Assembly (NCBI GenBank): GCA_963781585.1
Contig: CAWAGQ010000002.1
Coordinates: 160,001 to 224,000, forward strand
DNA: 64,000 nt
DNA from: an uncultured Gemmatimonadaceae bacterium
GTDB taxonomy: Bacteria > Gemmatimonadota > Gemmatimonadetes > Gemmatimonadales > Gemmatimonadaceae
Direction of reading: 5' to 3'
Below, one piece after another: positions 8,240 through 59,199 of the stretch. A program made the position numbers and the translations under genes. How positions within the stretch are numbered: position 1 is the stretch's first letter; every line of letters starts with the position of its first letter. The notes under the pieces are model-generated. The model saw only the letters and a program-made list of their open reading frames with translations. It searched no databases and was not told the origin of the DNA.

Positions 8240-8916
8240 CCACAGTCCGGAGACGCGCGCTCACCGCTCCGGTGGAGGACTACCTCAAGGCCATCTACGA
8301 CGTGGAGCTGGCGGGGGACGCGGCGGCAACGAACGACATCGCCCAGCGTCTCGACATCGCGCCGGCCTCGGTGAGTGGCATGGTGCGACGCCTGGCGGAG
8401 CAGGGGCTGCTGGCATACGAACCGTATCGCGGGGTGCGTCTCACGCCGGCCGGCCGGCGGGCCGCTCTGCGCACGATCCGCCGCCATCGGGTGATCGAGG
8501 CCTATCTGGTGCGCGCACTGGGCTTCCCGTGGGACAGCGTGCACGAGGAGGCCGAGCGGCTGGAGCATGCGGCCAGCGACACGCTGATCGATCGGATGGC
8601 GCGCGCCATCGGGGAGCCGCTCACCGATCCGCATGGTGCGCCGATCCCGACACGTGAGGGGCGGGTGGACGAGACGCGGTACGGCACTCTGGCCGACGTG
8701 GCCGTGGGGGGGCGGGCGCGGCTCATCCGGGTTGGCGACGAGGACGCGGCATTGCTGCGGCACCTATCCTCGTTAGGCCTGCGTCCCGAGGCCACGGTGT
8801 CGGTCCGGAGCCGGGCCCCATACGACGGGCCGATCACGCTCGACGTGGGCGGCCGGCGGCGCCAGGTAGGGTCGGCGCTGGCCGCGCGGCTTCAGGTGGA
8901 GCTGCTGTCGGACTGA
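8236..8916 (+). CDS. mntR: DtxR/MntR-family metal-dependent repressor with FeoA-like C-terminus
   Basis: EDYLKAIY, RRHRVIE, HEEAERLEH, DPHGAPIP. Confidence 0.9.
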   Translation: MTTVRRRALTAPVEDYLKAIYDVELAGDAAATNDIAQRLDIAPASVSGMVRRLAEQGLLAYEPYRGVRLTPAGRRAALRTIRRHRVIEAYLVRALGFPWDSVHEEAERLEHAASDTLIDRMARAIGEPLTDPHGAPIPTREGRVDETRYGTLADVAVGGRARLIRVGDEDAALLRHLSSLGLRPEATVSVRSRAPYDGPITLDVGGRRRQVGSALAARLQVELLSD

Positions 8917-8982
8917 GCGGCGGGCCGCCCCGCCAGCGGGGCATGAGCCGATAGCCGAATGCTGATGGCTGTTCGCTGTTCC

Positions 8983-9177
8983 CTAACGACCCTTCGAGGC
9001 CAGTCGTCCTTCCTCTCCGCCTGGCTTCTTCGGCAATCGACCGGCGCGGTTGAGCGCATCACGCAGCACGAATTCGATCTGCCCGTTGAGGCTGCGCAGG
9101 TCGTCGTTGGCCCAGCGCTGCATCGCCTGGAGCACCTCTCCGTCCATTCGGAGCAGGAAGGGGCGCCGGTCAGCCAT
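8983..9177 (-). CDS. Arc-like ribbon-helix-helix DNA-binding protein
   Basis: FLLRMD..WANDDLRSLNGQIEFVL; common partner of SPFH genes. Confidence 0.8.
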   Translation of the reverse strand: MADRRPFLLRMDGEVLQAMQRWANDDLRSLNGQIEFVLRDALNRAGRLPKKPGGEEGRLASKGR

Positions 9178-9326
9178 GGCATCGTCCCGCGCTGCCGGGC
9201 ATGGCCGCCGCGCTCCAACTCATCCCCGCGCTCCCGGCGTCACGCCCGCGGTGAACCGCGCGAGATCGTCACGCGTGGCGGGGAAGGCCGGTGCCCCCGA
9301 GAAGCGCGTTCTCAGATTGCCACGCG

Positions 9327-10196
9327 TCACTGGTAAATCGTCCCCGCATTGACGATCGGCTGGGCGTCGCGGTCGGAGCAGAGGACCACCAGCAGGTTGC
9401 TGATCATCGCCGCCTTGCGCTCCTCGTCGAGCTGCACGAGCGAGCGATCAGAGATCATCGACAGGGCGTTCTCGACCATGCCCACCGCCCCTTCGACGAT
9501 CTTCTGCCGGGCCGCGATGATCGCGCTCGCCTGCTGGCGCCGCAGCATCGCCGAGGCGATCTCGGGTGCGTACGCGAGGTGGCTGATGCGCGCCTCGATC
9601 ACGTCCACACCGGCCTTGTCGAGACGGTCCTGGATCGCCTTCTGGAGCGACGACGCGATCTCGTCGGGGTGCGTACTGAGCGCCTTCTCCCCGTCCACGT
9701 GCGCATCGTATGGGTACGACTGCGCGAGCGCCCGCACCGCCGACTCGCTCTGCGTCTGGACGAAGTTCTGGTAGTCGTCCACCTCGAACATCGCCTCCGC
9801 CGAGTCGATGACCTTCCACACCACGATGGCCCCGATCTCGATCGGGTTGGAGTGGATGTCGTTCACCTTGAGCTTCCCGGTCTCGAAGTTCCGCACCCGG
9901 AGCGAGATCCGCTTCTTGGAGTAGAACGGGTTGGCCCACCGGAGGCCGGCGTCGCGCACCGTGCCGATATACCGGCCGAAGAGCGTCAGGACCTTGGCGT
10001 CGTTAGGCTGGACGGTAAAGAGCCCGCCGGCGCCCAGGCCGACCAGGCCGAACACGACAGCCCAGGTGACGGCGAGCCCCGGACGTTGTGCCCCGGCGGC
10101 GGCGATCAGCCGCCAGATCGCCACACCGCCTGCCAGCAGAAAGAGCACGAGGGCGGCAAGCCCGTTGGTCGCCTTGAATCGGATTTCGCGGAACAT
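9327..10196 (-). CDS. SPFH/band-7 domain protein
   Basis: Two N-terminal TMs; [15 protein letters not shown] and [22 protein letters not shown]. Confidence 0.9.
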
Positions 10197-10223
10197 GCGT
10201 TCTGCTCCTGAGGGGTGAGATAT

Positions 10224-10251
10224 GCTATCGTGATGATATCATTCCGATATC
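10224..10251. promoter_or_regulatory. Candidate RHH operator: GATATC-like hexamers at 11-bp period
   Basis: GCTATC 10224, GATATC 10235, GATATC 10246, upstream of the SPFH-RHH unit. Confidence 0.55.
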
Positions 10252-10332
10252 TGACTGTCAAGATCGCTGGAACCGTGACCTCATCCGCTCATCGCTTGAC
10301 AGCCCGCGACGAGTCGTACCGATTCCGCTTCC

Positions 10333-11142: not shown

Positions 11143-11225
11143 GACGTGGACAATGGTGCGGATTCCCGGGTGGTGACGCGGTCCGTTATCCTCCGACGTC
11201 CTTCCTCGGAATGTATCGCTCAATC

Positions 11226-12081: not shown

Positions 12082-14016
12082 ATGACCGACACTCCGCACG
12101 GACACGCCACCGAAAAGGAAGCTCGCGATGTCGCCGAAGCGGCGCGCGAGACCGAGTGGCAGCATCCGAGTTTCGTCCGTGAGCTCTTCCTTGGGCGCTT
12201 CCGGCTCGACCTGGTTCATCCGCATCCCGAGCGCCACGATCCCGACGAAGAGGCGCGGGCTGCGGAGTTCATGGTCCGGCTGCGCGAGTTCCTGGAGCGC
12301 GTCGATTCCGAAGAGATCGACCGCACGGGCGAGATTCCGGAATCGCTGGTACAGGAGCTGCGCGACATGGGCGCGTTCGGGATCAAGATCCCGCGCGAGT
12401 ACGGCGGTCTCGGTCTCTCGCAGATGACGTACATCCGCGCCATGGAGCTGGTCACGTCGAAGGACGGCAGCCTCACGGCCCTGCTGTCGGCGAGTCAGTC
12501 GATCGGCGTTCCGCAACCGCTCAAGCTGTTCGGGTCGGAGGAGCAGAAGCGGAAGTTCTTCCCGCGGCTGGCACAGGGGGCGATCAGCGCGTTCGCGCTC
12601 ACCGAAGTGAACGCGGGTTCCGATCCCGCCAACATGGCGACCACAGCGACGCCGGTGGACGGCGGACGGTTCTTCGTCCTCAACGGCGAGAAGCTCTGGT
12701 GCACCAACGGCACGCGCGCCGAGCTGTTTGTGGTCATGGCGCGCACGCCGGACCGGGAGACGCCCGACGGGAAGAAGCGCAAGCAGATCACCGCGTTCAT
12801 CGTCGACGCGGCGATGCCGGGAGTGGAAGTCGCTCACCGATGCCGATTCATGGGACTCAAGGCGATCGAGAACGGGCTGATCCGGTTCCGCGACGTGAAA
12901 GTGCCGGCCGAGAACATTCTGTGGGGCGAGGGAAAGGGGTTGAAGCTGGCACTGATCACGCTGAACACGGGGCGGCTGACGCTGCCGGCGGGGTCGGCGG
13001 GGGTGGCGAAGGCGATGCTACGGATCTGCCGCGACTGGGCCAACGAGCGGGTGCAGTGGGGCCAGCCGATCGGGAAGCACGATGCGATCGCGCAGAAGAT
13101 CGGGCACATGGCAGCGGATGCATTCGCGATGGAGGCGGTGGCCGAGTTGTCGACGGCGCTGTACGAGCAGGGCGGGTACGACATCCGGCTCGAGGCGGCG
13201 GTGGCCAAGATGTGGAACACGGAGATGGGATGGCGGATCGTCGATGACACGGTGCAGGTGCGCGGCGGGCGCGGATACGAGACGGCCGATTCCCTCCGCG
13301 GGCGCGGCGAAAAGCCGATTCCGGTGGAGCGGGCGATGCGGGACTACCGCATCAACCTGATCTTCGAGGGCTCGTCCGAGATCATGCGGCTGTTCATTGC
13401 CCGCGAGGCGGTGGACAAGCACTTCGCGATGGCGTTCCCGATCGTGAGCCCGGATTCCACCATGTCGCAGCGCCTGTCGGCGTTAGGCAGATCGCTGCCG
13501 TTCTATGCGGCGTGGTATCCGGCGCGGTGGCTGTCGGTGCTGCGGCCGCGGACCTACGGCGAGTTCGGCCGGCTGGCAAGGCACCTGCGGTTCGCCGATC
13601 GCGCCACCAACCATCTCGGGCGGGCGCTCTTCCATGCGATGATCCGGTTCGGTCCGAAGCTGGAGCGACGCCAGATGGTCCTGTTCCGGGCAGTGGACAT
13701 CGGCGCCGAGTTGTACGCGATTGCCGCGTCATGTGTCCGGGCGCAGATGCTCGCGAAGCGCGGGCAGCGCGAGGCAGTGCGGCTGGCCGACGTCTTCTGC
13801 CGCGAGGCGCGGGAGCGCATCCGCAAGCGCTTCGGCGAACTGTACGGCAGGAACGACGTGACGGTGTACCGCCTGGCGCAGGAGGTCCTGCGTGGCGAGC
13901 ATGCCTGGCTGGAGCAGGGGATCGTGGGGATGACGCCGGACGCGCCGGCGCCCGCGGCCTCGCGTGAACCGGCCGTGTCGCGCGCGGAGCGGGAGCCGGC
14001 GGGCGTGGGGGACTAG
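12082..14016 (+). CDS. Acyl-CoA dehydrogenase (long, VLCAD-like)
   Basis: FALTEVNAGSD, LNGEKLWCTNG, RINLIFEGSSEI. Confidence 0.92.
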   Translation: MTDTPHGHATEKEARDVAEAARETEWQHPSFVRELFLGRFRLDLVHPHPERHDPDEEARAAEFMVRLREFLERVDSEEIDRTGEIPESLVQELRDMGAFGIKIPREYGGLGLSQMTYIRAMELVTSKDGSLTALLSASQSIGVPQPLKLFGSEEQKRKFFPRLAQGAISAFALTEVNAGSDPANMATTATPVDGGRFFVLNGEKLWCTNGTRAELFVVMARTPDRETPDGKKRKQITAFIVDAAMPGVEVAHRCRFMGLKAIENGLIRFRDVKVPAENILWGEGKGLKLALITLNTGRLTLPAGSAGVAKAMLRICRDWANERVQWGQPIGKHDAIAQKIGHMAADAFAMEAVAELSTALYEQGGYDIRLEAAVAKMWNTEMGWRIVDDTVQVRGGRGYETADSLRGRGEKPIPVERAMRDYRINLIFEGSSEIMRLFIAREAVDKHFAMAFPIVSPDSTMSQRLSALGRSLPFYAAWYPARWLSVLRPRTYGEFGRLARHLRFADRATNHLGRALFHAMIRFGPKLERRQMVLFRAVDIGAELYAIAASCVRAQMLAKRGQREAVRLADVFCREARERIRKRFGELYGRNDVTVYRLAQEVLRGEHAWLEQGIVGMTPDAPAPAASREPAVSRAEREPAGVGD

Positions 14017-15731: not shown

Positions 15732-18287
15732 ATGCGCTTTCTTCCGATCGTTCTCGCGATCAGTCTCGCTGGCGTCGGCCCGGTGGCCGCGCAGCAACTC
15801 GTCAGGCATCCAGCCACCGCTCCGGGCGCTCCGGCGGTTGCGATCGCGCGCGCGGTGAAGGCGCCGGACCCGATCGTCGTCGACGGCACGGACAGTGATC
15901 CCGTCTGGGGGGACGCGCCGGTGGTGGACGGCTTCCGCGTGTTCGATCCGGTGGAGGACGCCAATCCCACGATGCGGACCACCGCCCGGTTCGCCTACGA
16001 TGCGCACAATCTGTACGTCCTGGTGCGGGCGTTCGATCCGCACCCGGACAGCATCATGGCCCTTCTCTCGCGGCGGGATGAGCGCACCCAGTCCGACTAC
16101 ATCCGGGTGATCGTGGACTCATACCACGACAAGCGCACCGGCTACGAGTTCATGGTCAACCCGGCGGGCGTGAAGCGCGACCTCTACCTGTACAACGACA
16201 CCCAGGAAGACGTGTCGTGGGACGCCGTCTGGGACGTGAAGACGACGATCGATTCGTTAGGCTGGGTGGCCGAGTTCCGGATCCCGCTGAGCCAGCTGCG
16301 CTATCCCCGTGAGGACACCCACACCTTCGGTGTGGCGGTGCACCGTGAGGTAGGGCGGCTCAACGAGCGATCCAGCTGGCCCCTCTGGCGCCGGTCGCTG
16401 TTCGGCATCGCCTCGCAGCTGGGCGAGGTGGAGGGGCTGACGGGCATCGCCGCCCCGCGCCGACTCGAGGTGCTGCCCTATTCCGTGCAGACCAACGAGA
16501 GCGTGGTGCGGAACCAGTCGTTCGGACGAACGCAGCGCGGCACGGTGGGCGCCGACGTGAAGTACGGCCTGTCGTCGAACCTGACGCTCGACGCCGCCAT
16601 CAACCCCGATTTCGGCCAGATCGAAGCCGACCCGTCGGTACTCAACCTCTCGGCGTTCGAGCAGGTCTACGAGGAGAAGCGCCCGTTCTTTCTCGAGGGC
16701 ACGGGCATCTTCCGGTTCGACCAGGACTGTAATGACGGGAACTGCACCGGACTGTTCTACTCGCGCCGCATCGGTCGCGCGCCGCAGCTCCCGGGCCTGA
16801 GCGCCGATCCGAACGCGGTGCCCACGGCGACGACCATTGCCGGAGCCACCAAACTCACGGGCCGATTCGCCAACGGCCTGTCGGTCGGTATCCTCGATGC
16901 CGTTACCCTGCGGGAGTCGGTGGGCGACACGCTGACCGTCGAGCCCCGGACAAACTATCTGGTGGCGCGGTTCAATCAGGATCTGCGCCAGGGGAAGAGC
17001 GGCATCGGCGCGATTCTCACGGCGGTGAACCGGGATCTCGACCCGCAGAGCCGGCCGTACCTGCGCCGCGAGGCGTACACCGGCGGCATCGACCTGCGCC
17101 ATCGCTTCGCGCGGGGCGGGAACTACCAGTTCAGCGGCAACGTGGTCGGAAGCCTGGTGCGCGGATCGGCGGGCGCGATCGCCGTCACCCAGCGCAGCTC
17201 GGTGCACTTCTACCAGCGTCCCGACGACGATCTGCGCTACGACACCACCCGCACCAGTCTCTCCGGGTACGGCGTCAGTGCCGGGCTGAACAAGGTGGGC
17301 GGCGGCATCACGCGCTTCTACACCGGCGGCTGGTATCGCTCGGCGGGGCTCGAGGTGAACGACGCGGGTTTCATGACGTCGGTCAACAACATGGGATGGT
17401 CGAACTGGTTTGCCTTCGTGTTTCAGAAGCCGAAATCGATCTACCGCAGTCTGCAGATCAATTTCAATCAATGGAACAACTTTCTTCCGGACGGCAGGAC
17501 CACCGGCATCGGCGGCAACGTGAACGCCAACGCGACGCTCAAGAACATGTGGTTCGTGTACGGCGGCATCGGCGGGTCGCGGGCGGCGTACTGTGCCTCG
17601 TGCCTGCGCGGCGGTCCGCTGCTGCGCACCACGCCGCAGCTCAACAGCTGGTTCGGCTTCTCGGGCGACTCGCGGCATGCACTGGTGCCGGGCATCGATG
17701 GCGGATACAACCGCGGCGACAACGGCCGGTCCTTCTCGTTTTCCTTCGCGCCGTACGTGAACGCCAGGATCGCCAGCCGGTTCTCGACCACCATCGGCGT
17801 GTCGTACAACAGGAACGTGAGCGACCGGCAATGGCTGGGGAACTTCGGGGACATCGGGAGCGATACCACGCACTACACGGTGGCGCATCTGTCGCAGAAG
17901 ACGCTCTCGATGACCACTCGGCTGAATTTCACCGTCAGCCCCGTGCTGTCGTTCCAGTTCTACGGACAGCCGTTCGTGTCGTCGGGCACCTACTCGGACT
18001 GGCGCGAGGTCACGAATCCGCGGGCGACGCGCTATGGCGACGCGTTCGTACCGTTCACGCAGGAGGGCGATCCCGGTGCCTTCAACTTCAAGCAGTTCCG
18101 CTCGAATACGGTGATCCGCTGGGAGTATCGGCCCGGTTCAACGCTCTTTCTGGTCTGGCAGCAGGGGCGCGAGCAGAGCGACCTCGACCTCGGCGAATTC
18201 AGCGCCCTGCACGATTACCGGCACCTCTTCGGGGCCCATCCGCGGAACACGTTCCTGATCAAGGCGAGTTACTGGTTGTCCTTGTAG
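15732..18287 (+). CDS. Exported CBM9-like + DUF5916 outer-membrane protein
   Basis: Signal peptide; GWVAEFRIPLSQLRY, NPDFGQIEAD, EKRPFFLEG, LFYSRRIG; ends KASYWLSL. Confidence 0.8.
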   Translation: MRFLPIVLAISLAGVGPVAAQQLVRHPATAPGAPAVAIARAVKAPDPIVVDGTDSDPVWGDAPVVDGFRVFDPVEDANPTMRTTARFAYDAHNLYVLVRAFDPHPDSIMALLSRRDERTQSDYIRVIVDSYHDKRTGYEFMVNPAGVKRDLYLYNDTQEDVSWDAVWDVKTTIDSLGWVAEFRIPLSQLRYPREDTHTFGVAVHREVGRLNERSSWPLWRRSLFGIASQLGEVEGLTGIAAPRRLEVLPYSVQTNESVVRNQSFGRTQRGTVGADVKYGLSSNLTLDAAINPDFGQIEADPSVLNLSAFEQVYEEKRPFFLEGTGIFRFDQDCNDGNCTGLFYSRRIGRAPQLPGLSADPNAVPTATTIAGATKLTGRFANGLSVGILDAVTLRESVGDTLTVEPRTNYLVARFNQDLRQGKSGIGAILTAVNRDLDPQSRPYLRREAYTGGIDLRHRFARGGNYQFSGNVVGSLVRGSAGAIAVTQRSSVHFYQRPDDDLRYDTTRTSLSGYGVSAGLNKVGGGITRFYTGGWYRSAGLEVNDAGFMTSVNNMGWSNWFAFVFQKPKSIYRSLQINFNQWNNFLPDGRTTGIGGNVNANATLKNMWFVYGGIGGSRAAYCASCLRGGPLLRTTPQLNSWFGFSGDSRHALVPGIDGGYNRGDNGRSFSFSFAPYVNARIASRFSTTIGVSYNRNVSDRQWLGNFGDIGSDTTHYTVAHLSQKTLSMTTRLNFTVSPVLSFQFYGQPFVSSGTYSDWREVTNPRATRYGDAFVPFTQEGDPGAFNFKQFRSNTVIRWEYRPGSTLFLVWQQGREQSDLDLGEFSALHDYRHLFGAHPRNTFLIKASYWLSL

Positions 18288-27520: not shown

Positions 27521-27782
27521 CCATGTGGACCCGGCTCAGGGTACGGGGGCGAGTCAGCGTACGGTCCTGAATCGCACTGCCTAACGGCCAGCAGCGAGCG
27601 ACGGCGCGTCACCCCGGCGCGTCCGGCAGGCGCGTGGCCGCGACCCGGCTCGCATCAGGGAGTGACAGCACGGTCGCCGACGCGATGCCTGTAGAGTACT
27701 GGCCGGCCCGGTTCCGAGGGAGCGCCAGGAAAGATGATACCGCCTTCATCCCGGGCACGCGAAACGGCGCGCCCGACTTCCA

Positions 27783-29376: not shown

Positions 29377-29797
29377 TCGCCGCCCGGAACATCAGCGTCT
29401 TCGCCGCGCGCCCCTGACTTCCTCGTGATCGGGCCCCCAACGCGACGAAGACGATCTGATGCCTAACGTGAATGAGCAACTGCTACCGCAGCGTGATGCC
29501 CGCGATCAATGGAACCCAACGAAGATCGCGGCTGCCGTTCGACGCGTCCACCAGGCTCTTCTCGGCGAACACGTTCGTGACCGCCGAAACGCGCTCCCCT
29601 TCCGATTCTCATCCGGGCCTGATCAGTGAGCTGGACGAGGTCTTCGGCTGGCGGGCCGCCACGCGGGCGGCGCATGCGCCGCGACACCGCATTCGACTAG
29701 CTTGCACATCGTGGTCGAGCGACGCCGCCGGCCGCACGATCCGGGTGCCAGGCACCGGACCGTGACGGTGGCGACCAGCATTCAACCGGAGCCTGCA

Positions 29798-45765: not shown

Positions 45766-46662
45766 ATGACCAGCGCCATTGCCATAGCCACGTTAGGCTT
45801 CTTTCTCGGCATGCGCCACGCCACCGACGCCGACCACGTGATCGCCGTGACGACGATCGTGGCGCGGCACCGGAGTGTGCGGAGCGCGGCGTGGATCGGG
45901 GCCGTCTGGGGAATCGGCCACACCGTCACGATCCTGGTCGTCGGCGGCGCCATCATCCTGTTCAGCTGGGTGATCCCGCCGCGCATTGGATTGTCGATGG
46001 AGCTGGCGGTCGGACTGATGCTGGTCGCGCTGGGCCTGATGAACCTCGGCGGCTTCTGGCAACGGGTTCAACAGGTGCAGCCGGCGGCGGGTGCCCCGCT
46101 GCATGGGCACGCGGCGACGCACCCGCCGGCCCAGGCGCAGTTGCGTCAAGCCGCGGATCAACCCGCGCACGCGCATCCGCACGAGATCCCGCACGTGCAC
46201 GCGCATGCCCACCGCCACGGCGACTACATCCACACCCACGCGCACGAGCATGACCCCGAACGCCACCCCCACGATCCCGACCGCACGCCCCTGAGCCGCC
46301 TTGACCAGCGACTGGGATCCTTGCGCCTGTATCAGCTCGTGCGCCCGCTGGTCGTCGGCGTCGTGCACGGGTTGGCCGGGTCGGCGGCCATCGCCCTGCT
46401 CGTGCTCACCACCATCCGGAGCACGACCTGGGGCGTTGTGTATCTGCTCATCTTCGGAATCGGCACCATCGCCGGCATGATGCTCGTCACCGCCGCGGTC
46501 AGCGTCCCCTTCGCCATGACCGGCGCCCAGTTCGGCCGTCTGAATCGGCAGCTCCGGATCGTATCGGGCGTGGTGAGTCTCGCCTTCGGACTGTTCATTG
46601 CCTGGCGGATCGGGATCGTCGGCGGCCTGTTCACCGGCCATCCGCAGTGGACGCCGAGGTAG
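45766..46662 (+). CDS. HoxN/HupN/NixA (NiCoT)/UreH-like nickel-cobalt transporter with His-rich loop
   Basis: GMRHATDADH, GIGHT, HGLAGSA; central His-rich segment. Confidence 0.85.
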   Translation: MTSAIAIATLGFFLGMRHATDADHVIAVTTIVARHRSVRSAAWIGAVWGIGHTVTILVVGGAIILFSWVIPPRIGLSMELAVGLMLVALGLMNLGGFWQRVQQVQPAAGAPLHGHAATHPPAQAQLRQAADQPAHAHPHEIPHVHAHAHRHGDYIHTHAHEHDPERHPHDPDRTPLSRLDQRLGSLRLYQLVRPLVVGVVHGLAGSAAIALLVLTTIRSTTWGVVYLLIFGIGTIAGMMLVTAAVSVPFAMTGAQFGRLNRQLRIVSGVVSLAFGLFIAWRIGIVGGLFTGHPQWTPR

Positions 46663-50759: not shown

Positions 50760-52818
50760 GTGCGTATTCGTTCCACTCGATACCCGTTGTCCATGGGGCC
50801 CACGATCGCTGCCCTGACGATAAGTCTGGCGCACAGCCTGGCCGGGCAGACGCGCCCGCTGCCGTCACTCGACCCGTCCGGCACCGTACAAACGGGCCGA
50901 CCGCTGCCGGGGCCCGTTTACGAAACTCCCGCCTTCACGCGCGCCGTGGAGCGGCGAACGCGCACGCGCACGGGCGCCCCTGGTGAATCGTCGTGGACCC
51001 AGCATGCCCGCTACTATATAGATGCGCGTCTGGATCCGGTGGCGACACGAGTGTCGGGCAGCGAACGCGTCGTCTACCTCAACAATTCGCCCGACACGCT
51101 GCGCCGGATCGCGGTTCATCTGCGGCAGAACGCATTCGCGCCCGGAAACGCACGCCGCACGGCTGTCCCCACAACAGGCGGCATGACGCTGAACCGGGTG
51201 GCGGTGCGCGGAACCACCGTTGCGCCGCCCTCCGCGCCGGCGCCCGGCGCATCGATCAGCAGTTCGCCTCGGACCGCCGCGTCGAGGGACAGCTACCTCA
51301 TCGACGGAACGGTCATGTGGATCACCCTGGCCGTGCCCCTCATGCCGCGTGACAGCATCCGCCTGGACTTCGCGTGGTCGTATTCTCCGGCGCCGGCTCC
51401 AGCCGACGGACGGGAGGGACGCGAGGCAGACGTCTTCTTCATGGGATACTGGTATCCGCAGGTCGCCGTCTACGACGACGTGAATGGGTGGGTCGCGGAT
51501 CAGTACCTGCTGCAGGCCGAGTTCTACATGGAGCCCGCCGACTACGACGTGCGGCTGCACGTGCCGCGCGGGTGGGTGGTGGGTGCGACTGGCATTCTGC
51601 AGAACGCCGACACGGTGCTGAGTTCAGTCGCGCGCGCGCGGCTTGACGAGGCGCGGCGCACCGGGAGTGTGGTACATGTCGTGACGCCGGGACCCGGGAC
51701 CTCACGCGCGCTCGCCGGCACCGGCCCGACCCTCACCTGGCACTACTGGCGCGTCGACGTCCGCGATTTCGCCTGGGGCGCGGGCAACGCTTACGCATGG
51801 GATGCGACGCGCGCAATCGTCTCCGGGGCCGACGGCCGCGACCGACACGGTCGACCATCAACAGCTTCTACCGACAGCACGCGACGGCGTCAGCCTGGGC
51901 AGCAGGCGGGGCGCGTTTCACGCGGGACGCGATCGAGCAGCTCTCGGCCTGGCTCTGGCCGTATCCGTGGCCCCAGATGACCTCGATGGAGGGGATGCTG
52001 GACGGCGGCGGCATGGAGTATCCGATGATGACCATCATGCAGCCCTGGGCGGACACGCTCTCGCTGGCGGGCGACCTGATGCACGAGACCGGTCACATGT
52101 GGTTTCCGATGCAGGTGGGATCGAACGAGACTCGGTATCCGTGGATGGACGAAGGCTTCACGCAGTTCAACGATGCCCAGGGGATGCGGGTGCTGTACGG
52201 GGAGCCGCGCACCGGCGGCAGGCCTAACGATTCGGAACCCGGACAGCGCCGGCTCTATCTGGATGCAGCGCGCTCCGCAAGGACCAGCGGCTCATGGTGC
52301 CCGGGGACTCTATCCGTCGGAGCGGTACTTCGTCATGTACTACGACAAGACGGCCCAGGTGCTGGCGGCGCTGCGCGGCATGCTCGGCGAGCGAGACATT
52401 CCATCGGGCGTTCCGCGAATACGGACTCCGCTGGCTCGGGAAGCATCCGTACCCGTACGATTTCTTCAACACCATGGCGGACGTCGCCGGACACGACCTC
52501 TCATGGTTCTGGACGACGTGGTTCTACGAGCCGTGGTCCCTGGATCAGGCGATCGCCGCGGTGTCCACGGTGGGTGATTCCACGGCCATCGCCATCGAGG
52601 ATCGCGGGCTTGCGCCGATGCCCGTGCGTCTCGCCATCACACGCGCCGGCGGCGCCGTGCAGCGACTCGATCTGCCGGTGGACATCTGGTTGACTGGGTC
52701 GCGGCGCCACATGGTGCGCGTGGCCGCTACGCCGGCCGTCACCCGGGTGGAGATCGATCCCGACGCGGCCTTCCCCGACCTCGATCGCCGCAATCAGGTC
52801 TGGACGGTGCCACGCTAG
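50760..52818 (+). CDS. M1-family aminopeptidase (about 3 frameshifts)
   Basis: WYPQVAVYDD in ORF 50760; GGMEYP and HETGH..WMDEG in ORF 51797; KHPYPYDFF..DLSWFW in ORF 52294. Confidence 0.85.
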
Positions 52819-53017: not shown

Positions 53018-54325
53018 ATGTTCACCACGCCACGTTTGCTGCGGGCGCGTGTCAACGCGCCATTCCTTTTCCTCGCCATCCTCGCGGTACCGCTCGCGGC
53101 CCAGGGGCGCTACTTCCCGCCGCGAGGGGAGTGGGAGAAGCGCACCGCCGCGCAGGTCGGTCTGAACGCGAGCGGCGTGGACTCCGCGGTTGCCATCGCA
53201 CTCCGCAGCGAGTCGACGGCGTCGCGCGACCAGCTCGAGATGCAGCGCGGATCGTTCGGCCGGGAACCGCACGGCGAAGGGATCGGCCCGTTCAAGCCGC
53301 GCGGCGGCCCCGCGGGATTGATCGTGCGACACGGATACATCGTGGCCGAGTGGGGCGATCCCGACCGCGTCGACCTCACGCACAGCGTCACGAAGAGCTT
53401 CCTGTCCACGACCGTCGGGCTGGCCTACGACCGGAAGATGATCCGTGACGTGCACGACCCCGTGCGCCAGTACATGACGCCGATCGTGGCGCTCAAGGGT
53501 CCGCCGGGGAGGAGTGCCTCGCTGGTACCGATCCCGCCCGATGTGATGGGTGCCAATGTGAGCGACAGCGCCGCGCCGCCGCCGCCCGCCGGTGTGGCCT
53601 TCGACGCGTTCGAGGTGCTCGAGCCGTTCGAGTCCGAGCACAACAGGAAGATCACCTGGGACGAGATGCTGCGGCAGACGAGTGAGTGGCAGGGAACGCT
53701 CTGGGGGAAGCCGGACTGGGCGGATCGTCCGCGCGGCGACATCGAGCAATGGAAGCGGCGGGAGCGCCCCGAGCCCGGCACCGTGTACACGTACAACGAC
53801 GTGCGCGTGAATCTGCTGGCGCTCGCGGCGCTCACGGTGTGGCGCCGTCCGCTGCCGCAGATACTGCGCGACTCGGTGATGGATCCGATCGGCGCGTCGA
53901 ACACCTGGCGCTGGTACGGATACGACAACTCCTGGATCGTGCTCGACGGCCAGCTCGTCCAGTCGGTGACCGGGGGCGGGCACTGGGGCGGCGGCATGTG
54001 GATCAGTGCCCGCGACATGGCGCGTTTCGGCTACCTCACGCTCAACAGGGGGCGGTGGGGGAACCGGCAGATCCTGTCCGAGGCGTGGATCCGGATGGCG
54101 ACGACGCCCGGCGTGAACACGGGATACGGTTTCTGCAACTACTTCCTGAACACCGGCCGGCGGGCGCTGCCGAGTGCTCCGGAACAGGCGTTCTACCACC
54201 TGGGCAACGGGAACAACGTCATCTACGTCGATCCGGTGAATGATCTGGTCATCGTGGCGCGCTGGATCAACAGCACGCGCTCGCTGGACGCGATGATCAG
54301 GGCGGTGCTGGCCAGCGCGCGTTAG
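53018..54325 (+). CDS. Exported serine hydrolase (beta-lactamase-related)
   Basis: HSVTKS, YTYND, GGGHWGGG. Confidence 0.85.
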   Translation: MFTTPRLLRARVNAPFLFLAILAVPLAAQGRYFPPRGEWEKRTAAQVGLNASGVDSAVAIALRSESTASRDQLEMQRGSFGREPHGEGIGPFKPRGGPAGLIVRHGYIVAEWGDPDRVDLTHSVTKSFLSTTVGLAYDRKMIRDVHDPVRQYMTPIVALKGPPGRSASLVPIPPDVMGANVSDSAAPPPPAGVAFDAFEVLEPFESEHNRKITWDEMLRQTSEWQGTLWGKPDWADRPRGDIEQWKRRERPEPGTVYTYNDVRVNLLALAALTVWRRPLPQILRDSVMDPIGASNTWRWYGYDNSWIVLDGQLVQSVTGGGHWGGGMWISARDMARFGYLTLNRGRWGNRQILSEAWIRMATTPGVNTGYGFCNYFLNTGRRALPSAPEQAFYHLGNGNNVIYVDPVNDLVIVARWINSTRSLDAMIRAVLASAR

Positions 54326-54440
54326 GCGGCGCGGCTGTGACGCCGCGCACGTTCCGGTGCACGGCTGACTCCGACTGCGACCCGGCGCACGACTGCCGGG
54401 GTATCACCCGCGCCAGACATACGCAAACCCAGGAGGTCAC

Positions 54441-55082
54441 ATGCGTAAGGCAATCCCGGCTGCGATCATCGGCGGCCTGATGTTTGTGGCGTGCGCGCGT
54501 CAGGCGCGTATCGAGTCCGGCGGCGACGTCGATCTCAGCGCCACGCCTCTGGACGCCCGCATCCTGCCGAGCGGGATAGCGGTCGACGTGCGCCTCGACC
54601 GGGAAATCGGCACCAAGGCCAGCCGTGTGGGCGATCAGTTCAGCGCGACGGTCGAGCACGCCGTGGTGGCGCAGAACGGGGCGACCGTGGTCCCCGAGGG
54701 CGCCAAGGTCTACGGCACGGTAACCGGGCTCGATAATTCCGAGCACGTCGGCGACCCGGCGGCCATCCGCATCGATTTCGACCGACTCAACATGCGGGGG
54801 CAGAACTATCCGTTCTCCGCGAAAGTCACGGCCACCAATCTGGAAACGCGCGGCGCGGACACGCGGAGCGAGACGCTGAAGAAGGCGGGTGTCGGGGCCG
54901 CTGCGGGCGCCGTGCTCGGCGCCGTCCTCGGCGGCGGTGATCTCGACAAGATCCTGCTCGGCGGCGCGATCGGAGCGGCCGCCGGTACCGTCATTTCGTT
55001 AGGCACCGGTGAAGTGGAGGGTGTGCTCCCGGCCGGAACCGACATGACGCTGCAGACCACGCAGACCGTGGTCCTTCGGTAA
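54441..55082 (+). CDS. Lipoprotein with TrbI/VirB10-like beta domain and glycine zipper
   Basis: GGAGG RBS; lipobox FVAC; GAAAGAVLGAVLGG. Confidence 0.7.
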   Translation: MRKAIPAAIIGGLMFVACARQARIESGGDVDLSATPLDARILPSGIAVDVRLDREIGTKASRVGDQFSATVEHAVVAQNGATVVPEGAKVYGTVTGLDNSEHVGDPAAIRIDFDRLNMRGQNYPFSAKVTATNLETRGADTRSETLKKAGVGAAAGAVLGAVLGGGDLDKILLGGAIGAAAGTVISLGTGEVEGVLPAGTDMTLQTTQTVVLR

Positions 55083-55320: not shown

Positions 55321-55539
55321 ATCACCACGCCGCGCCTCGAGAACCGACTGAAGGTCGCACGCGCCGAGCGCGGGCTGTCGCAGACCGACCTCGCCCGACT
55401 TGCTCACGTGACGCGGCAGACGATCAGCTCAATAGAGACAGGCCAGTACATCCCATCCGCGCTGCTTGCGTTCATCCTCGCCAGGCGGCTGGGACAGCGC
55501 GTCGACGAGCTGTTTACCCTGCAAGGAGACGATCCATGA
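55321..55539 (+). CDS. XRE-family HTH regulator (apparent ATC start; not in ORF track)
   Basis: LENRLKVARAERGLSQTDLA..VTRQTISSIETGQYIPS..LAF; GGAGG 7 nt before ATC; ATGA coupling to the next gene. Confidence 0.85.
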   Translation: MTTPRLENRLKVARAERGLSQTDLARLAHVTRQTISSIETGQYIPSALLAFILARRLGQRVDELFTLQGDDP

Positions 55540-55829: not shown

Positions 55830-55940
55830 CTCGATTTCTGAACAAGCTCTGCCCGCGGTGACGCCCGTACTGGCGCGGCTGCGGACCGTGCGGCACGCGG
55901 GAGCTCCGACCTCGAGACCCGACGGTCATGGCGAGTCGCT

Positions 55941-56477: not shown

Positions 56478-56494
56478 GTCACCCGAACGAGCCG

Positions 56495-57217
56495 CTACGG
56501 TTTCTTCCGCGCCGCCGTCAGGATCGCTCCGTATGCGTCCTGCAAAAACGTCGTCAGGGGCTCCTTGAGCGTCTCAATTGCCTTCTGTACCGCGTCGCCC
56601 TCGGTCCGGGCCAGTGGGTCGATCTCTGAACCGCTCTTGACGTTCTTGCGGACACCCTTGTCGATGGCGTCGGTCGCCGCTTCCTGAATCGATTTGGGAA
56701 GAAGTGCCATGACGCCGGTTTTCTTCGCGGCGTCCGATCCTGGCGTCTTGTTCCGCAGTGTGAACAGTCCCGTCTTTATCAGCTCGCCCGTTGCCGTGTT
56801 CACGAGCTTGATCCGTACACCCAGGTCGGCTATGTAGCTGATGTCCGAGCGCGTCTTCCCCACGCGGGTGACGGTCTCCGATTCAATGACACCAAGCAGC
56901 AGCACGGTGCTGTTGAGACGTGACGTGCTCTCCAGGGAGACGCGGCTGTCGAAGTTGCGATAGCTCTGCGCGCGCTGCATCTCCTGCTCGATCGCGGGAT
57001 CCGTGCTGCGATCGAGAATGGAGTACAGGTCGGCTTCCTGCGCGAACTGCACGACGTCCTGCCCCAACTGAAGGGCAGTCTGTCGCGAATACGGGCCCGG
57101 TGTAAGCACGCCGAACGGCAGGACGGCCAAGGTGACCTCGGCGCCCTGTGTCAGGGCCGGTTGCGCGGCGGTGAGGGAAAGGCCGGCGACCATGAAGAGC
57201 GCGTTCCGAGTACACAT
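56495..57217 (-). CDS. Exported CsgG/LpoB-like protein
   Basis: TLAVLPF, YSILDRS...IEQEM, VRIKLVNTATGELI. Confidence 0.6.
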   Translation of the reverse strand: MCTRNALFMVAGLSLTAAQPALTQGAEVTLAVLPFGVLTPGPYSRQTALQLGQDVVQFAQEADLYSILDRSTDPAIEQEMQRAQSYRNFDSRVSLESTSRLNSTVLLLGVIESETVTRVGKTRSDISYIADLGVRIKLVNTATGELIKTGLFTLRNKTPGSDAAKKTGVMALLPKSIQEAATDAIDKGVRKNVKSGSEIDPLARTEGDAVQKAIETLKEPLTTFLQDAYGAILTAARKKP

Positions 57218-57330
57218 CCGTCTTCTCCCGCTCAGATTAAGCGGGCTTAACATAGCTCTGCTCGCCTGGTGCCGCAATACGCGCAAGTGACGGAGCTTGG
57301 TGACGGCTCGCTATCAGGGCGTCCACTTCT

Positions 57331-59199
57331 TCATGGAACAGCGTGCCACCAATCGATGTCCGCGCGCGCCGAGAGGGGATGGGAGCAATCCGTGTGCACG
57401 CCGTACCGGCACGCCAGCGCGAAGAGTCGGGATGCTTCGCGCGCGTCGCGCTTGACGCCAAGGCCGATCTCGTGCAGACGTCCCAGCAGGAAACACCCCT
57501 CGCCGGAGTGCGCGTTGCAGCTGCGCTCGGCAAGTTCCCGCGCGCGCGGAAAGTCCGGGTTCGCGCCCAGCCCGAACGACAACTGCTGCGCCAGCAGATT
57601 GCACCCCACGGGATCGTAGAGGGCGCAGGCCGCTTCGGCCAGGCGGCCCGCGAGTGTTTGCTCAGCGGGTGAGCGGTTCCGCTCCACGTAGAGGCGCGCG
57701 AGGAAGGCGCACGAGGTCGCGTCGCCACTGCGGCAGCCGGTGTCGAGATAGGTCTGGCCGGCCGGAGCGAGCCGGGTGCCCGACGTGCCCGGACTCGCGA
57801 TGGCGGCGTAGGGACAGGCGGCGGGAACGCCGCCGGTGCAGCCGTTACCAAGGGCCGACAGCAGTTCGCCCGGGCTGCCGCCGTGGCCCTGCGACAGCCA
57901 CAGACGGGCCAGTCCAGCGCACGCGTTAGGCTCGGCGTGGTCGCAGGCCTTCCGGAGCCGTGCCGTCCCGTCGGCGCTCCGCGCCGGGTCGCGGGCATCC
58001 AGCAGCGCGCCTTCCGCACACGACGCCGCATCTCCCGCGTCGCAGCCGTGCGCCAGCAGATCGCGCGCCGTGGCGTCGTCCCGCGGGACGCCGTGAGCCG
58101 CGAGCACGCGGATGCCCGCCGCGTAGCAGTCGCCGGGCGCGCCGGCACGGCACGTACCGGACAGCGCGTCGAACCCTCGCGAATCGACCGCCGCGACCAG
58201 GACGTCCGGTGCCGCCGCAACGCTCTCCGCCAGAGTGTGTGACGCGCCGGCTCCGCGCGAACGCGTGTCAGGGACGGCGGCCGGTGGGGTGCCCGCGTCC
58301 CGGACCGGGCCGCCTGGCGGGGATGCCGGGGCGGTCCCGGATCCAGCGCCGCCGGGATTCGCCCAGGCTCTCGCCGCCGCGGCACCCGCGTCGCGCAGCG
58401 GGAACAGAAACTCCCCCCCCTCGTCCTCGGTGTCGAAAATCGTCCCGTACTCCGGTGTCACAGGACTGTTGTTCATGACCGCTGTGCGGAGACTGGTAAA
58501 CAGCTCCGACGCGGGGAGGAGCGCCGCCCGATTCTCATCGAGTCGCTTGATCAGGTATTCGAGAAAGCGGCTGTTGTCCGGCACGGTCTCCTTGGCCCCG
58601 CTGGTCATGGCTTTTCGGCTCCGGAGAGCGTACAGCCGTGACATGGCCGGCGCATTCGCGAAGTCCGCTCCGCGCGTCTTGAAGATCCCACCCGAGAAGC
58701 ACGCGTCGGTGATCAACAGGGTGTGCTGCGTCTTGATGCGTCTGATCAGGTCACGGATATCGGCGTTGGAGATCCAGCGGGCCGGGTTCGCGCGCCTGGC
58801 ATCCGCCGGGAGCCAGTAGCCTTGCTGAGTCTTCTCATCCCAGTGTCCGTGTCCGGCAAAGAAGATCAGGAGGTTGTCGTCAGGGCCCAGTCGCTCCGAG
58901 AGCGCGTACAGACTGGCCTCGATGCTGTCGCGTGTCGGATTGTCCAGGACGGCGATGTCCCGTGACTCGAACTGGTAGCGCTGGATCAACACGTCGCGCA
59001 GTCGCCCGGCGTCACGTACCGGATTGTCCAGCCGCGGCAGCGCCGGATCGGCATAGTTCTCGACCGCGATCAGCAGCGCGTGGTACGCGCCCAGCCGTGT
59101 TGCCCCGCGGTTCTGCTGCACCTCGACCCCTCGGGTGTTCTGGGCCGCAAGGTGCGCGCCGAGCAGGAGCAGCAACGCCGGGTAGCGGGCGATCGTCAT
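57331..59199 (-). CDS. Exported caspase-family (C14) protease with C-terminal Sel1-like repeats
   Basis: Signal peptide; ALLIAVENY, FFAGHG, ITDACFSG; Cys-paired Sel1 repeats (ACALYDPVGCNLLA, GCFLLGRLHEIGLGV). Confidence 0.88.
   Translation of the reverse strand: MTIARYPALLLLLGAHLAAQNTRGVEVQQNRGATRLGAYHALLIAVENYADPALPRLDNPVRDAGRLRDVLIQRYQFESRDIAVLDNPTRDSIEASLYALSERLGPDDNLLIFFAGHGHWDEKTQQGYWLPADARRANPARWISNADIRDLIRRIKTQHTLLITDACFSGGIFKTRGADFANAPAMSRLYALRSRKAMTSGAKETVPDNSRFLEYLIKRLDENRAALLPASELFTSLRTAVMNNSPVTPEYGTIFDTEDEGGEFLFPLRDAGAAAARAWANPGGAGSGTAPASPPGGPVRDAGTPPAAVPDTRSRGAGASHTLAESVAAAPDVLVAAVDSRGFDALSGTCRAGAPGDCYAAGIRVLAAHGVPRDDATARDLLAHGCDAGDAASCAEGALLDARDPARSADGTARLRKACDHAEPNACAGLARLWLSQGHGGSPGELLSALGNGCTGGVPAACPYAAIASPGTSGTRLAPAGQTYLDTGCRSGDATSCAFLARLYVERNRSPAEQTLAGRLAEAACALYDPVGCNLLAQQLSFGLGANPDFPRARELAERSCNAHSGEGCFLLGRLHEIGLGVKRDAREASRLFALACRYGVHTDCSHPLSARADIDWWHAVP

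What the first reader, a model, noticed from the sequence alone, without database searches (positions are those of the whole stretch)
8771..57931. Over-represented octamer CGTTAGGC scattered through genes and spacers
Seen by manual scan: CGTTAGGC at 8771, 10001, 13481, 16255, 30498, 45791, 54320, 54997 and 57924, and its complement GCCTAACG at 26128, 27579, 29461 and 52222 (13 exact). One-mismatch copies occur at 8981, 11272, 26790, 35061 and 40502. My rough zero-order expectation at about 69% GC is around 2 copies, and TTA/TAG look otherwise scarce. Inside genes it forces the rare Leu codon TTA (xCG TTA GGC) and occurs in both orientations, so selection seems to act on the DNA. Inference: a genome-wide signal like Chi, KOPS, DNA-uptake sequences or HIP1, or a methylation/protein-binding site. 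A link to the type IIG MTase at the left edge is speculation.
Basis: partly seen in the sequence, partly recalled or inferred. Interest (0 to 1): 0.7.

Follow-up and report, generated by a model that had tools for sequence, protein, structure and literature searches.

The report
Hyper-abundant genome-wide octamer in Gemmatimonadaceae
The eight-letter DNA word CGTTAGGC is written about 1,400 times across this soil bacterium's genome and in many of its relatives, in a pattern most like the "uptake sequences" that some bacteria use to recognise their own kind's DNA, and it is the same word that ends the recombination sites of this lineage's integron gene cassettes.

Summary
CGTTAGGC occurs 13 times in the window, against about 1 expected, and 1442 times in the 5.7 Mb genome. 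That is 28 times the order-3 Markov expectation and 23 times a synonymous-codon shuffle, and it is the top octamer of the genome.

- **Shape of the motif.** It is a sharp 8-mer without conserved flanks. It lies in both orientations, with no replication or transcription polarity once coding constraints are removed.
- **Codon cost.** It holds 58% of all TTA codons.
- **Distribution.** Close pairs are avoided, and it is depleted in atypical DNA.
- **Conservation.** Between congeners 81% of sites are exactly conserved, against 29% for matched controls. Between genera the positions have turned over completely.
- **Spread.** By my threshold, 52 of 151 family genomes carry it, up to 1.25 copies per kb. 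A named record of cultured Gemmatirosa kalamazoonensis is among the carriers. It is almost absent elsewhere in the phylum.

Chi/KOPS, methylation with short-patch repair, and the type IIG link are not supported. The best reading, at about 0.4, is a DNA-level kin-transfer signal of the DUS/USS/HIP1 kind.

One unexpected finding: the octamer equals the R' core end of integron attC sites in related genomes. No reader protein was identified, and DNA uptake itself is untested.

The parts
8771..8778 (+). CGTTAGGC copy, coding strand, TCG TTA GGC (Ser-Leu-Gly)
   Evidence: own gene calls
10001..10008 (+). copy antisense to a minus-strand gene, read there as CAG CCT AAC GAC (Gln-Pro-Asn-Asp)
13481..13488 (+). 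copy, coding strand, GCG TTA GGC (Ala-Leu-Gly)
16255..16262 (+). copy, coding strand, TCG TTA GGC (Ser-Leu-Gly)
26128..26135 (-). copy, coding strand of a minus-strand gene, ACG TTA GGC (Thr-Leu-Gly)
27579..27586 (-). copy in a spacer (intergenic by my gene calls)
29461..29468 (-). copy in a spacer (intergenic by my gene calls)
30498..30505 (+). copy, coding strand, TCG TTA GGC (Ser-Leu-Gly)
45791..45798 (+). copy, coding strand, ACG TTA GGC (Thr-Leu-Gly)
52222..52229 (-). copy in a spacer (intergenic by my gene calls)
54320..54327 (+). copy across the end of gene 53018-54325: CGT TAG gives Arg plus the stop codon
   Evidence: read directly from the sequence
54997..55004 (+). copy, coding strand, TCG TTA GGC (Ser-Leu-Gly)
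57924..57931 (+). copy antisense to a minus-strand gene, read there as GAG CCT AAC GCG (Glu-Pro-Asn-Ala)

Best explanation
CGTTAGGC is a signal read on double-stranded DNA. It gives DNA that carries it a transmission advantage among kin. The most likely route is preferential uptake or retention during natural transformation, as with the DUS of Neisseriaceae, the USS of Pasteurellaceae and, by recent proposals, HIP1 of cyanobacteria.

Inferred mechanism: point mutations that create the word are favoured each time DNA is exchanged, and mutations that destroy it are disfavoured. Copies therefore pile up wherever the coding sequence tolerates them, mainly at [Ala/Ser/Thr/Pro]-Leu-Gly as xCG TTA GGC and, antisense, at Pro-Asn as CCT AAC. 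They rise to roughly one copy per 1-4 kb, stay in place between close relatives, and turn over on longer time scales.

Shown here: the statistics, the orientation neutrality, the frame usage, the spacing, the conservation, the phyletic spread, and the presence of a full type IV pilus/ComEA/ComEC/DprA gene set.

Inferred only: that uptake is sequence-biased, and which protein reads the word.
For: 1. Extreme, sharply bounded enrichment.
- 1442 copies against 51 under an order-3 Markov model; it is the top octamer of the genome.
- One-mismatch variants are mostly at background level.
- The synonymous-shuffle ratio of observed to expected is 23.5.

2. The force overrides codon usage.
- In the context NCG_GGC, TTA is the commonest Leu codon (761 of 1994). 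Elsewhere it is 544 of 156651.
- 16% of all [ASTP]LG sites and 32% of eligible Pro-Asn sites are written as the motif.

3. It is orientation-neutral.
- Same/antisense counts are 277/114 in leading-strand genes and 181/77 in lagging-strand genes.
- Intergenic copies are 81 leading against 89 lagging.
- Between tandem genes the counts are 104 against 85.

4. There are no conserved flanks beyond 'not C' at -1 and a purine at +8.

5. Close pairs are avoided. Gaps of 500 bp or less make up 4.8% of gaps, against 12% for a random scatter.

6. It is depleted in atypical DNA.
- Density rises from 0.108 to 0.303 per kb from the lowest to the highest codon-score fifth.
- The longest motif-free gaps are mostly of lower G+C.

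7. It is maintained between congeners at 11% divergence.
- 65 sites are shared, 19 are private to one genome and 7 to the other, and the differences are almost all single bases.
- 43 of 53 motif-form sites are exactly conserved, against 74 of 258 for the same tripeptides in other codons.

8. Between genera the positions are independent: 7 sites are shared at conserved tripeptides, against 6.96 expected.

9. The same word is the top octamer in pieces of four other genomes. By my threshold it is raised in 52 of 151 family genomes, in both orientations.

10. G000 encodes the machinery for DNA uptake.
- ComEC and DprA.
- A ComEA-like gene next to PilB-PilT-PilC.
- PilMNO(P)Q with pilins.

11. Published parallels.
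- Uptake sequences: abstracts listed.
- HIP1 conserved and 15-300-fold over-represented: PMC5861425, abstract.
- HIP1 proposed as an uptake sequence: PMC13756078, abstract and section 9.
Against: - No uptake or transformation data exist for any carrier, and no transformation report for this phylum came up in my searches.
- No gene was found whose presence tracks the motif. ComEC (139 of 151), PilM (138 of 151), the pilin family (150 of 151), a 318-aa minor pilin (121 of 151) and the neighbouring 386-aa protein (104 of 151) occur in carriers and non-carriers alike. Their identities follow phylogeny.
- The ComP_DUS family matches only below threshold (19.9 bits against a cut-off of 27.3).
- Pilins differ strongly between genera (37-45% identity). 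The octamer is nevertheless invariant, which is unlike the DUS 'dialects'.
- The two non-carriers sampled showed no alternative dispersed word.
- Paired copies in terminators, common for DUS and USS, are rare here (8 pairs).
- The identity with the integron attC R' end may point to a different reader.
Confidence: 0.4

Rival explanations
1. The word is the binding site of an abundant chromosomal DNA-binding protein, for example one that structures or compacts the nucleoid. It is kept by ordinary selection for site density, as Xu et al. proposed for HIP1.
For: - Sites are orientation-neutral and evenly spread, and close pairs are avoided.
- Sites are conserved between congeners.
- The word is invariant across genera with about 60% protein identity, which suits a conserved DNA-binding domain better than fast-evolving pilins.
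- PMC5861425 (abstract) argues this for HIP1.
Against: - Selection per site would be tiny, yet it must beat strong codon bias at more than 700 TTA codons.
- There is no depletion or enrichment around the terminus-like skew switch of contig C4.
- No candidate protein was found.
- Complete turnover of positions between genera means that no individual site matters.
Confidence: 0.2
2. The word is read by an integron-type tyrosine recombinase, or by a relative or partner of one. It is identical to the R' core end of the lineage's attC sites, so the dispersed copies would be targets, decoys or by-products of that system.
For: - In G015:C95, 23 same-strand copies at 500-750 bp spacing are the 3' ends of attC-like sites. 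These are 90-136 nt long, with GCCTAACA at one end and CGTTAGGC at the other, and fold at -21 to -35 kcal/mol.
- Similar sites lie next to the integron integrase of G079, the nearest carrier.
- The attC definition of RYYYAAC...GTTRRRY over 57-141 bp comes from PMC3053210 (passages).
- Integron integrases score above the curated cut-off in 88 of 151 family genomes.
- A random octamer would hold a GTTRRRY 7-mer on either strand in only about 0.4% of cases (my arithmetic, made after the fact).
Against: - Integrase presence does not track the motif. It is intact in many non-carriers (G002, G004, G115, G059). Only fragments or nothing above Xer level were found in the densest carriers (G009, G090, G138, G056, G114, G100, G129).
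- Only 8 attC-like pairs exist in G000, which accounts for at most 16 of the 1442 copies.
- No array was seen beside the G000 integrase.
- The flanks differ: C or T precedes the attC R' end, whereas C is disfavoured before dispersed copies.
- I know of no recombination mechanism that leaves isolated core sites in frame inside genes (inference).
Confidence: 0.15
3. A Chi-like 'self' mark that tames a helicase-nuclease at DNA ends, or a KOPS-like orienting sequence.
For: The density of about 1 per 4 kb, and the status as top octamer of the genome, resemble Chi in E. coli (recalled). It is also depleted in atypical DNA.
Against: - There is no polarity once gene strand is controlled. The weak skew on C4, about 65%, equals what the gene-strand bias predicts.
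- RecC was not found in G000, G009, G057, G115, G002 or G048.
- There are only two weak PD-(D/E)XK hits, in ORFs of about 560 aa.
- The enrichment against codon usage is far stronger than for known Chi sites (recalled).
Confidence: 0.05
4. A mutational by-product of a methyltransferase with a short-patch repair enzyme, as once proposed for HIP1, or a restriction-modification target such as that of the type IIG enzyme at the window edge.
For: - Some transition neighbours are mildly raised: CGTTAGGT 9.3x, TGTTAGGC 3.6x, CGTCAGGC 3x over the synonymous shuffle.
- G000 has a Dcm-Vsr fusion beside an EcoRII-like gene.
Against: - That Vsr locus is an EcoRII-type system and sits inside a 24.5 kb motif-free gap.
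- C5-methyltransferases occur in only 39 of 151 genomes, and none was found in G009, G001, G005, G057, G157 or G048.
- The methylome paper of KBS708 lists three unrelated m6A motifs.
- Short-patch repair can drive only one position, not all eight (inference).
- The type IIG homologue is present in carriers and non-carriers.
Confidence: 0.05
5. Chance, codon usage, a protein motif or a hidden repeat family.
For: High-order Markov models (orders 5-6) reproduce the count.
Against: - That fit is circular.
- The synonymous shuffle gives 48 against 1126 observed.
- The tripeptides themselves are not enriched (observed/expected 0.9-1.2).
- Both strands and the spacers carry it.
- There are no conserved flanks.
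Confidence: 0.01

Closest known systems
DNA uptake sequences: DUS of Neisseriaceae and USS of Pasteurellaceae
   Same: - It is a short exact word, hundreds to thousands of copies, in both orientations.
- It lies inside genes in the frames that cost least.
- It is evenly spread and scarce in foreign DNA.
- Related species share it.
- The competence genes are present.
   Different: - The phylum is different, and uptake bias is untested.
- No ComP-type receptor scored above threshold.
- No dialects were seen, only one invariant word that is either present or not.
- Terminator pairs are few.
- It occurs in G+C-rich genomes and forces rare A/T-rich codons.
HIP1 (GCGATCGC) of cyanobacteria
   Same: - It is an octamer that is tens-fold over-represented.
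- Sites are conserved between close relatives.
- The word is invariant over a wide clade, with lineages that lack it.
- Its function has long been unknown and is now suspected to lie in transformation (PMC5861425 abstract; PMC13756078 abstract and section 9; bioRxiv 2024.09.10.611283, abstract in the search listing).
   Different: - It is not palindromic.
- No cognate methyltransferase was found.
- Periodicity was not tested here.
Integron attC core site (R' / 1R, GTTRRRY)
   Same: Seven of the eight letters are a canonical core. The full octamer is the R' end of attC sites in arrays of related genomes (definition from PMC3053210 passages).
   Different: - Dispersed copies lack the inverse core, the palindrome and the cassette structure.
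- They lie in frame inside conserved genes.
- Integrase presence does not track them.
Chi and KOPS / architecture-imparting sequences
   Same: An over-represented octamer spread over the chromosome.
   Different: There is no strand polarity, and RecBCD/AddAB were not found.

Membership tests
DNA uptake sequences (DUS/USS) | Short word far above compositional and codon-based expectation, genome-wide | tested here: met
   1442 copies against 51 (order-3 Markov). 1126 against 48 in coding DNA (synonymous shuffle). All 17 contigs carry it.
DNA uptake sequences (DUS/USS) | Both orientations, with no replication polarity | tested here: met
   724 forward and 718 reverse. There is no polarity after controlling for gene strand.
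DNA uptake sequences (DUS/USS) | Shared by related species, with sites stable between close relatives | tested here: met
   52 of 151 family genomes by my threshold. 81% exact conservation against 29% for controls between congeners.
DNA uptake sequences (DUS/USS) | Scarce in recently acquired DNA | tested here: met
   0.108 against 0.303 per kb across codon-score fifths. The long gaps are of lower G+C. My gene calls are crude.
DNA uptake sequences (DUS/USS) | Competence machinery encoded | tested here: met
   ComEC, DprA, ComEA-like, PilB/T/C, PilM/N/O/Q and pilins in G000. The same genes are also in non-carriers.
DNA uptake sequences (DUS/USS) | Competent cells take up DNA with the word in preference to DNA without it | not testable with these tools
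   Needs uptake or transformation assays.
DNA uptake sequences (DUS/USS) | A dedicated receptor (ComP-type minor pilin in Neisseria) | tested here: inconclusive
   PF16732 matches three pilins at 13-20 bits, against a cut-off of 27.3. No pilin tracks the motif.
HIP1-type iterated octamers | Palindromic word | tested here: not met
   CGTTAGGC is not its own reverse complement (read directly from the sequence).
HIP1-type iterated octamers | Cognate orphan methyltransferases that co-occur with the word | tested here: not met
   C5-methyltransferase is in 39 of 151 genomes and was not found in the densest carriers. The KBS708 methylome paper lists three unrelated m6A motifs. Other methylase classes were not profiled.
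Chi / KOPS | Strand bias tied to the direction of replication | tested here: not met
   The skew on C4 is explained by gene strand.
Chi | RecBCD or AddAB present | tested here: not met
   RecC was not found in 6 genomes. There are only two weak PD-(D/E)XK hits in G000, which is 93.5% complete.
Integron attC sites | GTTRRRY core | tested here: met
   GTTAGGC fits the consensus. The full octamer is the R' end in arrays of G015 and G079.
Integron attC sites | Inverse core RYYYAAC 57-141 bp upstream with an imperfect palindrome between, in cassette arrays | tested here: not met
   Only 8 such pairs exist in G000, and the flanks are not conserved.
REP / MITE-type dispersed repeats | Conserved sequence or hairpin beyond the core | tested here: not met
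   The flanks show only codon periodicity.

The most novel reading that the evidence does not exclude
The competence or DNA-exchange apparatus of a large clade of Gemmatimonadaceae has a sequence preference for the very word that ends integron attC sites. On this reading the genome-wide octamer is an uptake-type signal derived from, and still coupled to, integron cassette traffic. Cells would import cassettes and kin DNA preferentially, and molecular drive has since written the attC core about 1,000-6,000 times into their own genes. A variant of the same idea is that a domesticated integrase-family protein reads isolated cores.
Probability: 0.12. Interest if true: 0.9.

Novelty: new variant of a known kind. 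Interest (0 to 1): 0.78.

Why it matters
Sequence-biased DNA exchange is established for only two proteobacterial families and is debated for cyanobacterial HIP1.

A third or fourth independent case would show that such genome-wide 'kin marks' are a recurrent outcome of bacterial gene exchange. This one lies in an abundant but little-studied soil phylum, in G+C-rich genomes where the mark is paid for with the rarest codons.

The case is directly testable, because a named record of a cultured type strain (Gemmatirosa kalamazoonensis KBS708) carries the word.

The identity with the integron attC core offers a possible link between transformation and cassette capture that nobody has looked for.

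On the practical side:
- The octamer is a strong lineage marker for binning and for spotting foreign DNA in these genomes.
- It explains most TTA codons, which would otherwise look like regulatory rare codons.

Tried and rejected
- **Longer repeat or peptide motif.** The flanks are unconserved and the tripeptides are not enriched.
- **Apparent all-plus runs.** This is an artefact of the listing order. The fetched pieces show mixed strands.
- **'Dialects' in non-carriers.** G115 has tandem (GAAAGCA)n arrays and G002 a REP-like hairpin element. Neither has a dispersed sharp word. Only 2 non-carriers were sampled, 227 kb and 400 kb.
- **Presence/absence profiling of candidate readers or drivers.** None tracks the motif. 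I tested ComEC, one pilin, another pilin, C5-methylase, the type IIG enzyme, a 318-aa minor pilin, a 386-aa pilus-cluster protein, integron integrase and PilM.
- **Genomes without the two pilus-cluster proteins.** They are nearly all non-carriers: 28 of 30 for the 318-aa minor pilin, and 45 of 47 for the 386-aa protein. Since PilM is near-universal, I read this as sequence divergence in distant lineages, not as absence of pili.
- **Vsr.** It belongs to an EcoRII-type system.
- **Ancestry of site positions between genera.** No excess sharing was found.
- **Anomalously similar proteins between carriers.** In the small samples only housekeeping-like outliers appeared.
- **Plasmid-collection protein search with the type IIG enzyme.** It gave only distant hits.
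- **My first attC scanner.** It failed on the positive control and was replaced.
- **RpoB tree.**
  - Five of the 30 rows turned out to be a neighbouring longer gene. I dropped them and rebuilt the tree.
  - The 25 rows left are the closest matches to G000, so the sample is biased. In that tree 'POS' means at least 150 copies.
  - On those 25 rows the clustering of the label is weak: 46 of 500 shuffles need as few changes.
- **Exact-word literature search.** Nothing was found for either strand of the octamer. Searches on uptake sequences with Gemmatimonadetes found no report either.

Full report
**1. Observation**

CGTTAGGC occurs 13 times in the window, at exactly the positions given. 100 dinucleotide-preserving shuffles gave a mean of 0.97 and never more than 4.

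The window is C2:160001-224000 of a 5.72 Mb, 17-contig, 67% G+C assembly.

The whole genome holds 1442 copies, 724 forward and 718 reverse, at 0.19-0.34 per kb on every contig. Expected numbers are:

| Markov order | Expected copies |
|---|---|
| 1 | 89 |
| 3 | 51 |
| 4 | 484 |
| 6 | 1417 |

By order-3 z-score it is by far the top octamer of the genome, and the next words on the list are its overlapping neighbours. The agreement at orders 5-6 is circular, because 85% of all CGTTAGG and 91% of all GTTAGGC lie inside the octamer.

The word is sharply bounded. Most one-letter variants sit at background level. The exceptions are CGTCAGGC, CGTTAGGT, CGTTATGC and TGTTAGGC. The flanks carry only codon periodicity, a dislike of C at -1 and a purine at +8, and these preferences are also seen in spacers.

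**2. Relation to genes**

The gene calls are my own crude codon-score caller: 4421 genes and about 83% coding. The copies fall as follows:

| Context | Share of copies |
|---|---|
| xCG TTA GGC on the coding strand | 53% |
| Antisense, read as CCT AAC | 19% |
| Antisense, read as CTA ACG | 4% |
| GTT AGG | 2% |
| Spacers or gene edges | 22% |

- 761 of 1305 TTA codons lie in the word. In the context NCG_GGC, TTA is the commonest Leu codon, whereas elsewhere it is 0.35% of Leu codons.
- Shuffling synonymous codons within each gene gives about 48 copies against 1126 observed.
- Of the places where the word could be written without changing the protein, 16% of [ASTP]-Leu-Gly and 32% of Pro-Asn sites use it. 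The two frames that need two rare codons are used at only 1-3%.
- The peptides themselves are not enriched.

So the force acts on the DNA, on both strands, and is limited by codon cost.

**3. Polarity, spacing and foreign DNA**

Contig C4 shows a terminus-like G-C skew switch near 575 kb, with genes co-oriented with replication. After stratifying by gene strand, the same/antisense ratio is 71% in leading-strand genes and 70% in lagging-strand genes. Spacer copies are 81 leading against 89 lagging. Between tandem genes the counts are 104 against 85. There is thus no replication or transcription polarity.

Gaps of 500 bp or less are 4.8% of all gaps, against 12% for a random scatter. The longest gaps (up to 38.7 kb) are mostly of lower G+C. 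Density rises from 0.108 to 0.303 per kb from the least to the most 'native' fifth of genes by codon score, although the word itself lowers that score.

**4. Evolution**

*Within the genus.* A 400 kb stretch of the congener G001 is collinear with C4 at 11.2% divergence.
- 65 sites are shared, 19 are private to G000 and 7 to G001.
- 22 of the 26 private sites differ by one base.
- Exact conservation is 43 of 53 for motif-form [ASTP]LG sites, 74 of 258 for the same tripeptides in other codons, and 41.6% for all octamers.

*Between genera.* I compared pieces of G156, G056, G081 and G009 with G000; their orthologues are about 60% identical in protein.
- Shared positions are few: 10 shared, 84 private to the sampled piece and 36 private to G000.
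- At conserved tripeptides the joint use equals the product of the separate uses: 7 observed against 6.96 expected.

Sites are therefore held over short times and turn over completely over long times.

**5. Spread**

*Family.*
- In 151 genomes of the family, 52 have at least 150 copies and more copies than the reversed-word control. This threshold is my own, applied to the table.
- The densest genomes reach 6360 copies in 5.1 Mb.
- About 93 genomes have 85 copies or fewer, which is well below the control.
- Genera are mostly uniform, but g54 has two carriers (3896 and 4141 copies) and one non-carrier (66 copies).

*Rest of the phylum.* In a phylum-wide sample of 161 genomes, only genus g109 of a sister family is raised outside the family: G272 has 726 copies against a control of 293.

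*Other genomes sampled.* The word is the top octamer in all four carrier pieces examined, with mixed strands.

*RpoB tree.*
- The tree has 25 rows. I dropped 5 of the 30 fetched loci because the longest ORF was a neighbouring gene. The 25 rows are those closest to G000, and 'POS' means at least 150 copies.
- A branch with SH-aLRT support of 98 separates 16 carriers from 6 non-carriers and 3 carriers.
- At least 2, and most parsimoniously 4, changes of state are needed.
- Clustering of the label is weak on these 25 rows: 46 of 500 shuffles need as few changes.
- Inheritance within this carrier clade fits vertical descent, with gains or losses elsewhere.

*Unpublished genomes.* The tallies include genomes flagged as unpublished: G008, G042, G043 and G141 in the family scans, and G201 and G230 in the phylum scan. 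G043 is also one row of the tree. No conclusion depends on them.

*Named record.* Plasmid 1 of Gemmatirosa kalamazoonensis KBS708 has 36 copies in 50 kb, against 0.68 expected.

**6. Mechanisms tested**

*Chi and KOPS*
- There is no polarity.
- RecC was not found in 6 genomes.
- No AddAB-sized PD-(D/E)XK protein was found in G000.

*Methylation and repair*
- The KBS708 methylome paper, which I read in full, lists only RGATCY, ATGCAC and CCAGN7TCA as m6A motifs. 5-methylcytosine would have been missed by that method.
- C5-methyltransferases occur in only 39 of 151 genomes and not in the densest carriers.
- The single Vsr of G000 is fused to a Dcm-type methylase beside an EcoRII-like gene, inside a motif-free gap.

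*Type IIG enzyme at the window edge*
- It is 1076 aa, of the Eco57I/MmeI type, and sits next to an SNF2 helicase.
- It has homologues of about 50% identity in carriers and non-carriers alike.

*Competence genes*
- G000 has ComEC, DprA, a ComEA-like gene directly upstream of PilB-PilT-PilC, and a PilM-N-O-(P)-Q cluster preceded by three pilin genes and a 386-aa protein.
- These are family-wide: ComEC in 139 of 151 genomes and PilM in 138 of 151.
- The pilins and the 386-aa protein show identities that follow phylogeny, not the motif.
- ComP_DUS matches only below its threshold.

I found no gene whose presence tracks the word. With these tools I could test only single candidates, not whole proteomes.

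**7. An unexpected link**

Non-carrier genomes of the sister family show runs of same-strand copies every 500-750 bp. In G015:C95 these are integron cassette arrays.
- Each copy is the 3' end of a 90-136 nt imperfect palindrome that begins with GCCTAACA and ends with CGTTAGGC.
- These fold at -21 to -35 kcal/mol with DNA parameters.
- This matches the published definition of attC sites: RYYYAAC ... GTTRRRY over 57-141 bp (PMC3053210, passages).
- The same kind of site lies beside the integron integrase of G079, the closest carrier.

Integron integrases above the curated cut-off occur in 88 of 151 family genomes, in carriers and non-carriers alike, and are missing or broken in the densest carriers.

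In G000 only 8 attC-like pairs exist. The dispersed copies are therefore not attC sites, but the word is the lineage's attC R' end. I cannot explain this identity. A coupling of DNA exchange to cassette traffic, or a reader related to the integrase, are the readings I keep open.

**8. Verdict**

The finding is real, is not explained by composition or codon usage, and is not in the searched literature.

Its anatomy matches uptake-type kin signals (DUS, USS) and HIP1 better than any other known class. The defining test, biased uptake, cannot be run here, and no receptor was found. I therefore give the main reading about 0.4 and classify it as a new variant of a known kind.

The closest published discussions of a comparable puzzle are the HIP1 papers: PMC5861425 (abstract) and PMC13756078 (abstract and section 9).

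Noticed in passing
L120 = G015:C95:1-20000; also runs listed for G013:C3, G015:C43 and C80, G017:C113, G211:C12 and C23, G214:C55 and C109, G247:C51 and C89: There are large integron cassette arrays in the sister family. L120 has 19-22 attC-like sites in 20 kb and no ORF of 600 aa or more. Integron integrases score above the curated cut-off in 88 of 151 genomes of the window's own family, which looks like an unusually integron-rich lineage.
   Followed up: partly
G000 genome-wide; for example words AGGCCAAA and GGCCAAAG, about 330-400 copies: The second most over-represented word family in this genome is a set of tandem heptamer arrays, (AGGCCAA)n mixed with (AGGTCAT)n. The non-carrier G115 has analogous (GAAAGCA)n arrays. 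Heptamer arrays may be a feature of the family.
   Followed up: partly
L041-L060 (G002 pieces): A REP-like dispersed hairpin element, TTCCGGCTTTCGCCGGAATGAC, occurs at about 0.18 per kb in a non-carrier genome.
   Followed up: no
window 1-996 and upstream (G000:C2:155388-160996; L085): A 1076-aa Eco57I/MmeI-type methylase-endonuclease sits next to a 939-aa SNF2-family helicase. The enzyme is conserved at about 50% identity in all five family genomes tested, which is unusual for a restriction system.
   Followed up: partly
G000:C7:477213-479892 (L084): An HTH-Dcm-Vsr fusion ORF is followed by an EcoRII-like endonuclease. It lies inside a 24.5 kb stretch without the octamer, probably an acquired island.
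   Followed up: partly
G000:C8:204488-219251 and C5:198412-210780: Two gene-for-gene similar segments are present, each with a pilin followed by a small Smr-domain ORF. The pilins are 89% identical. This is either a duplication or two strains in one bin, since the tool reports 7.19% contamination.
   Followed up: no
G000:C4, near 575 kb: A cumulative G-C skew maximum with convergent gene orientation marks a probable replication terminus.
   Followed up: no
G000:C14:136887-142913 and C12:17732-20173: A 2008-aa protein upstream of the ComEA-PilBTC cluster, and an 813-aa protein after PilQ, have no Pfam match.
   Followed up: no
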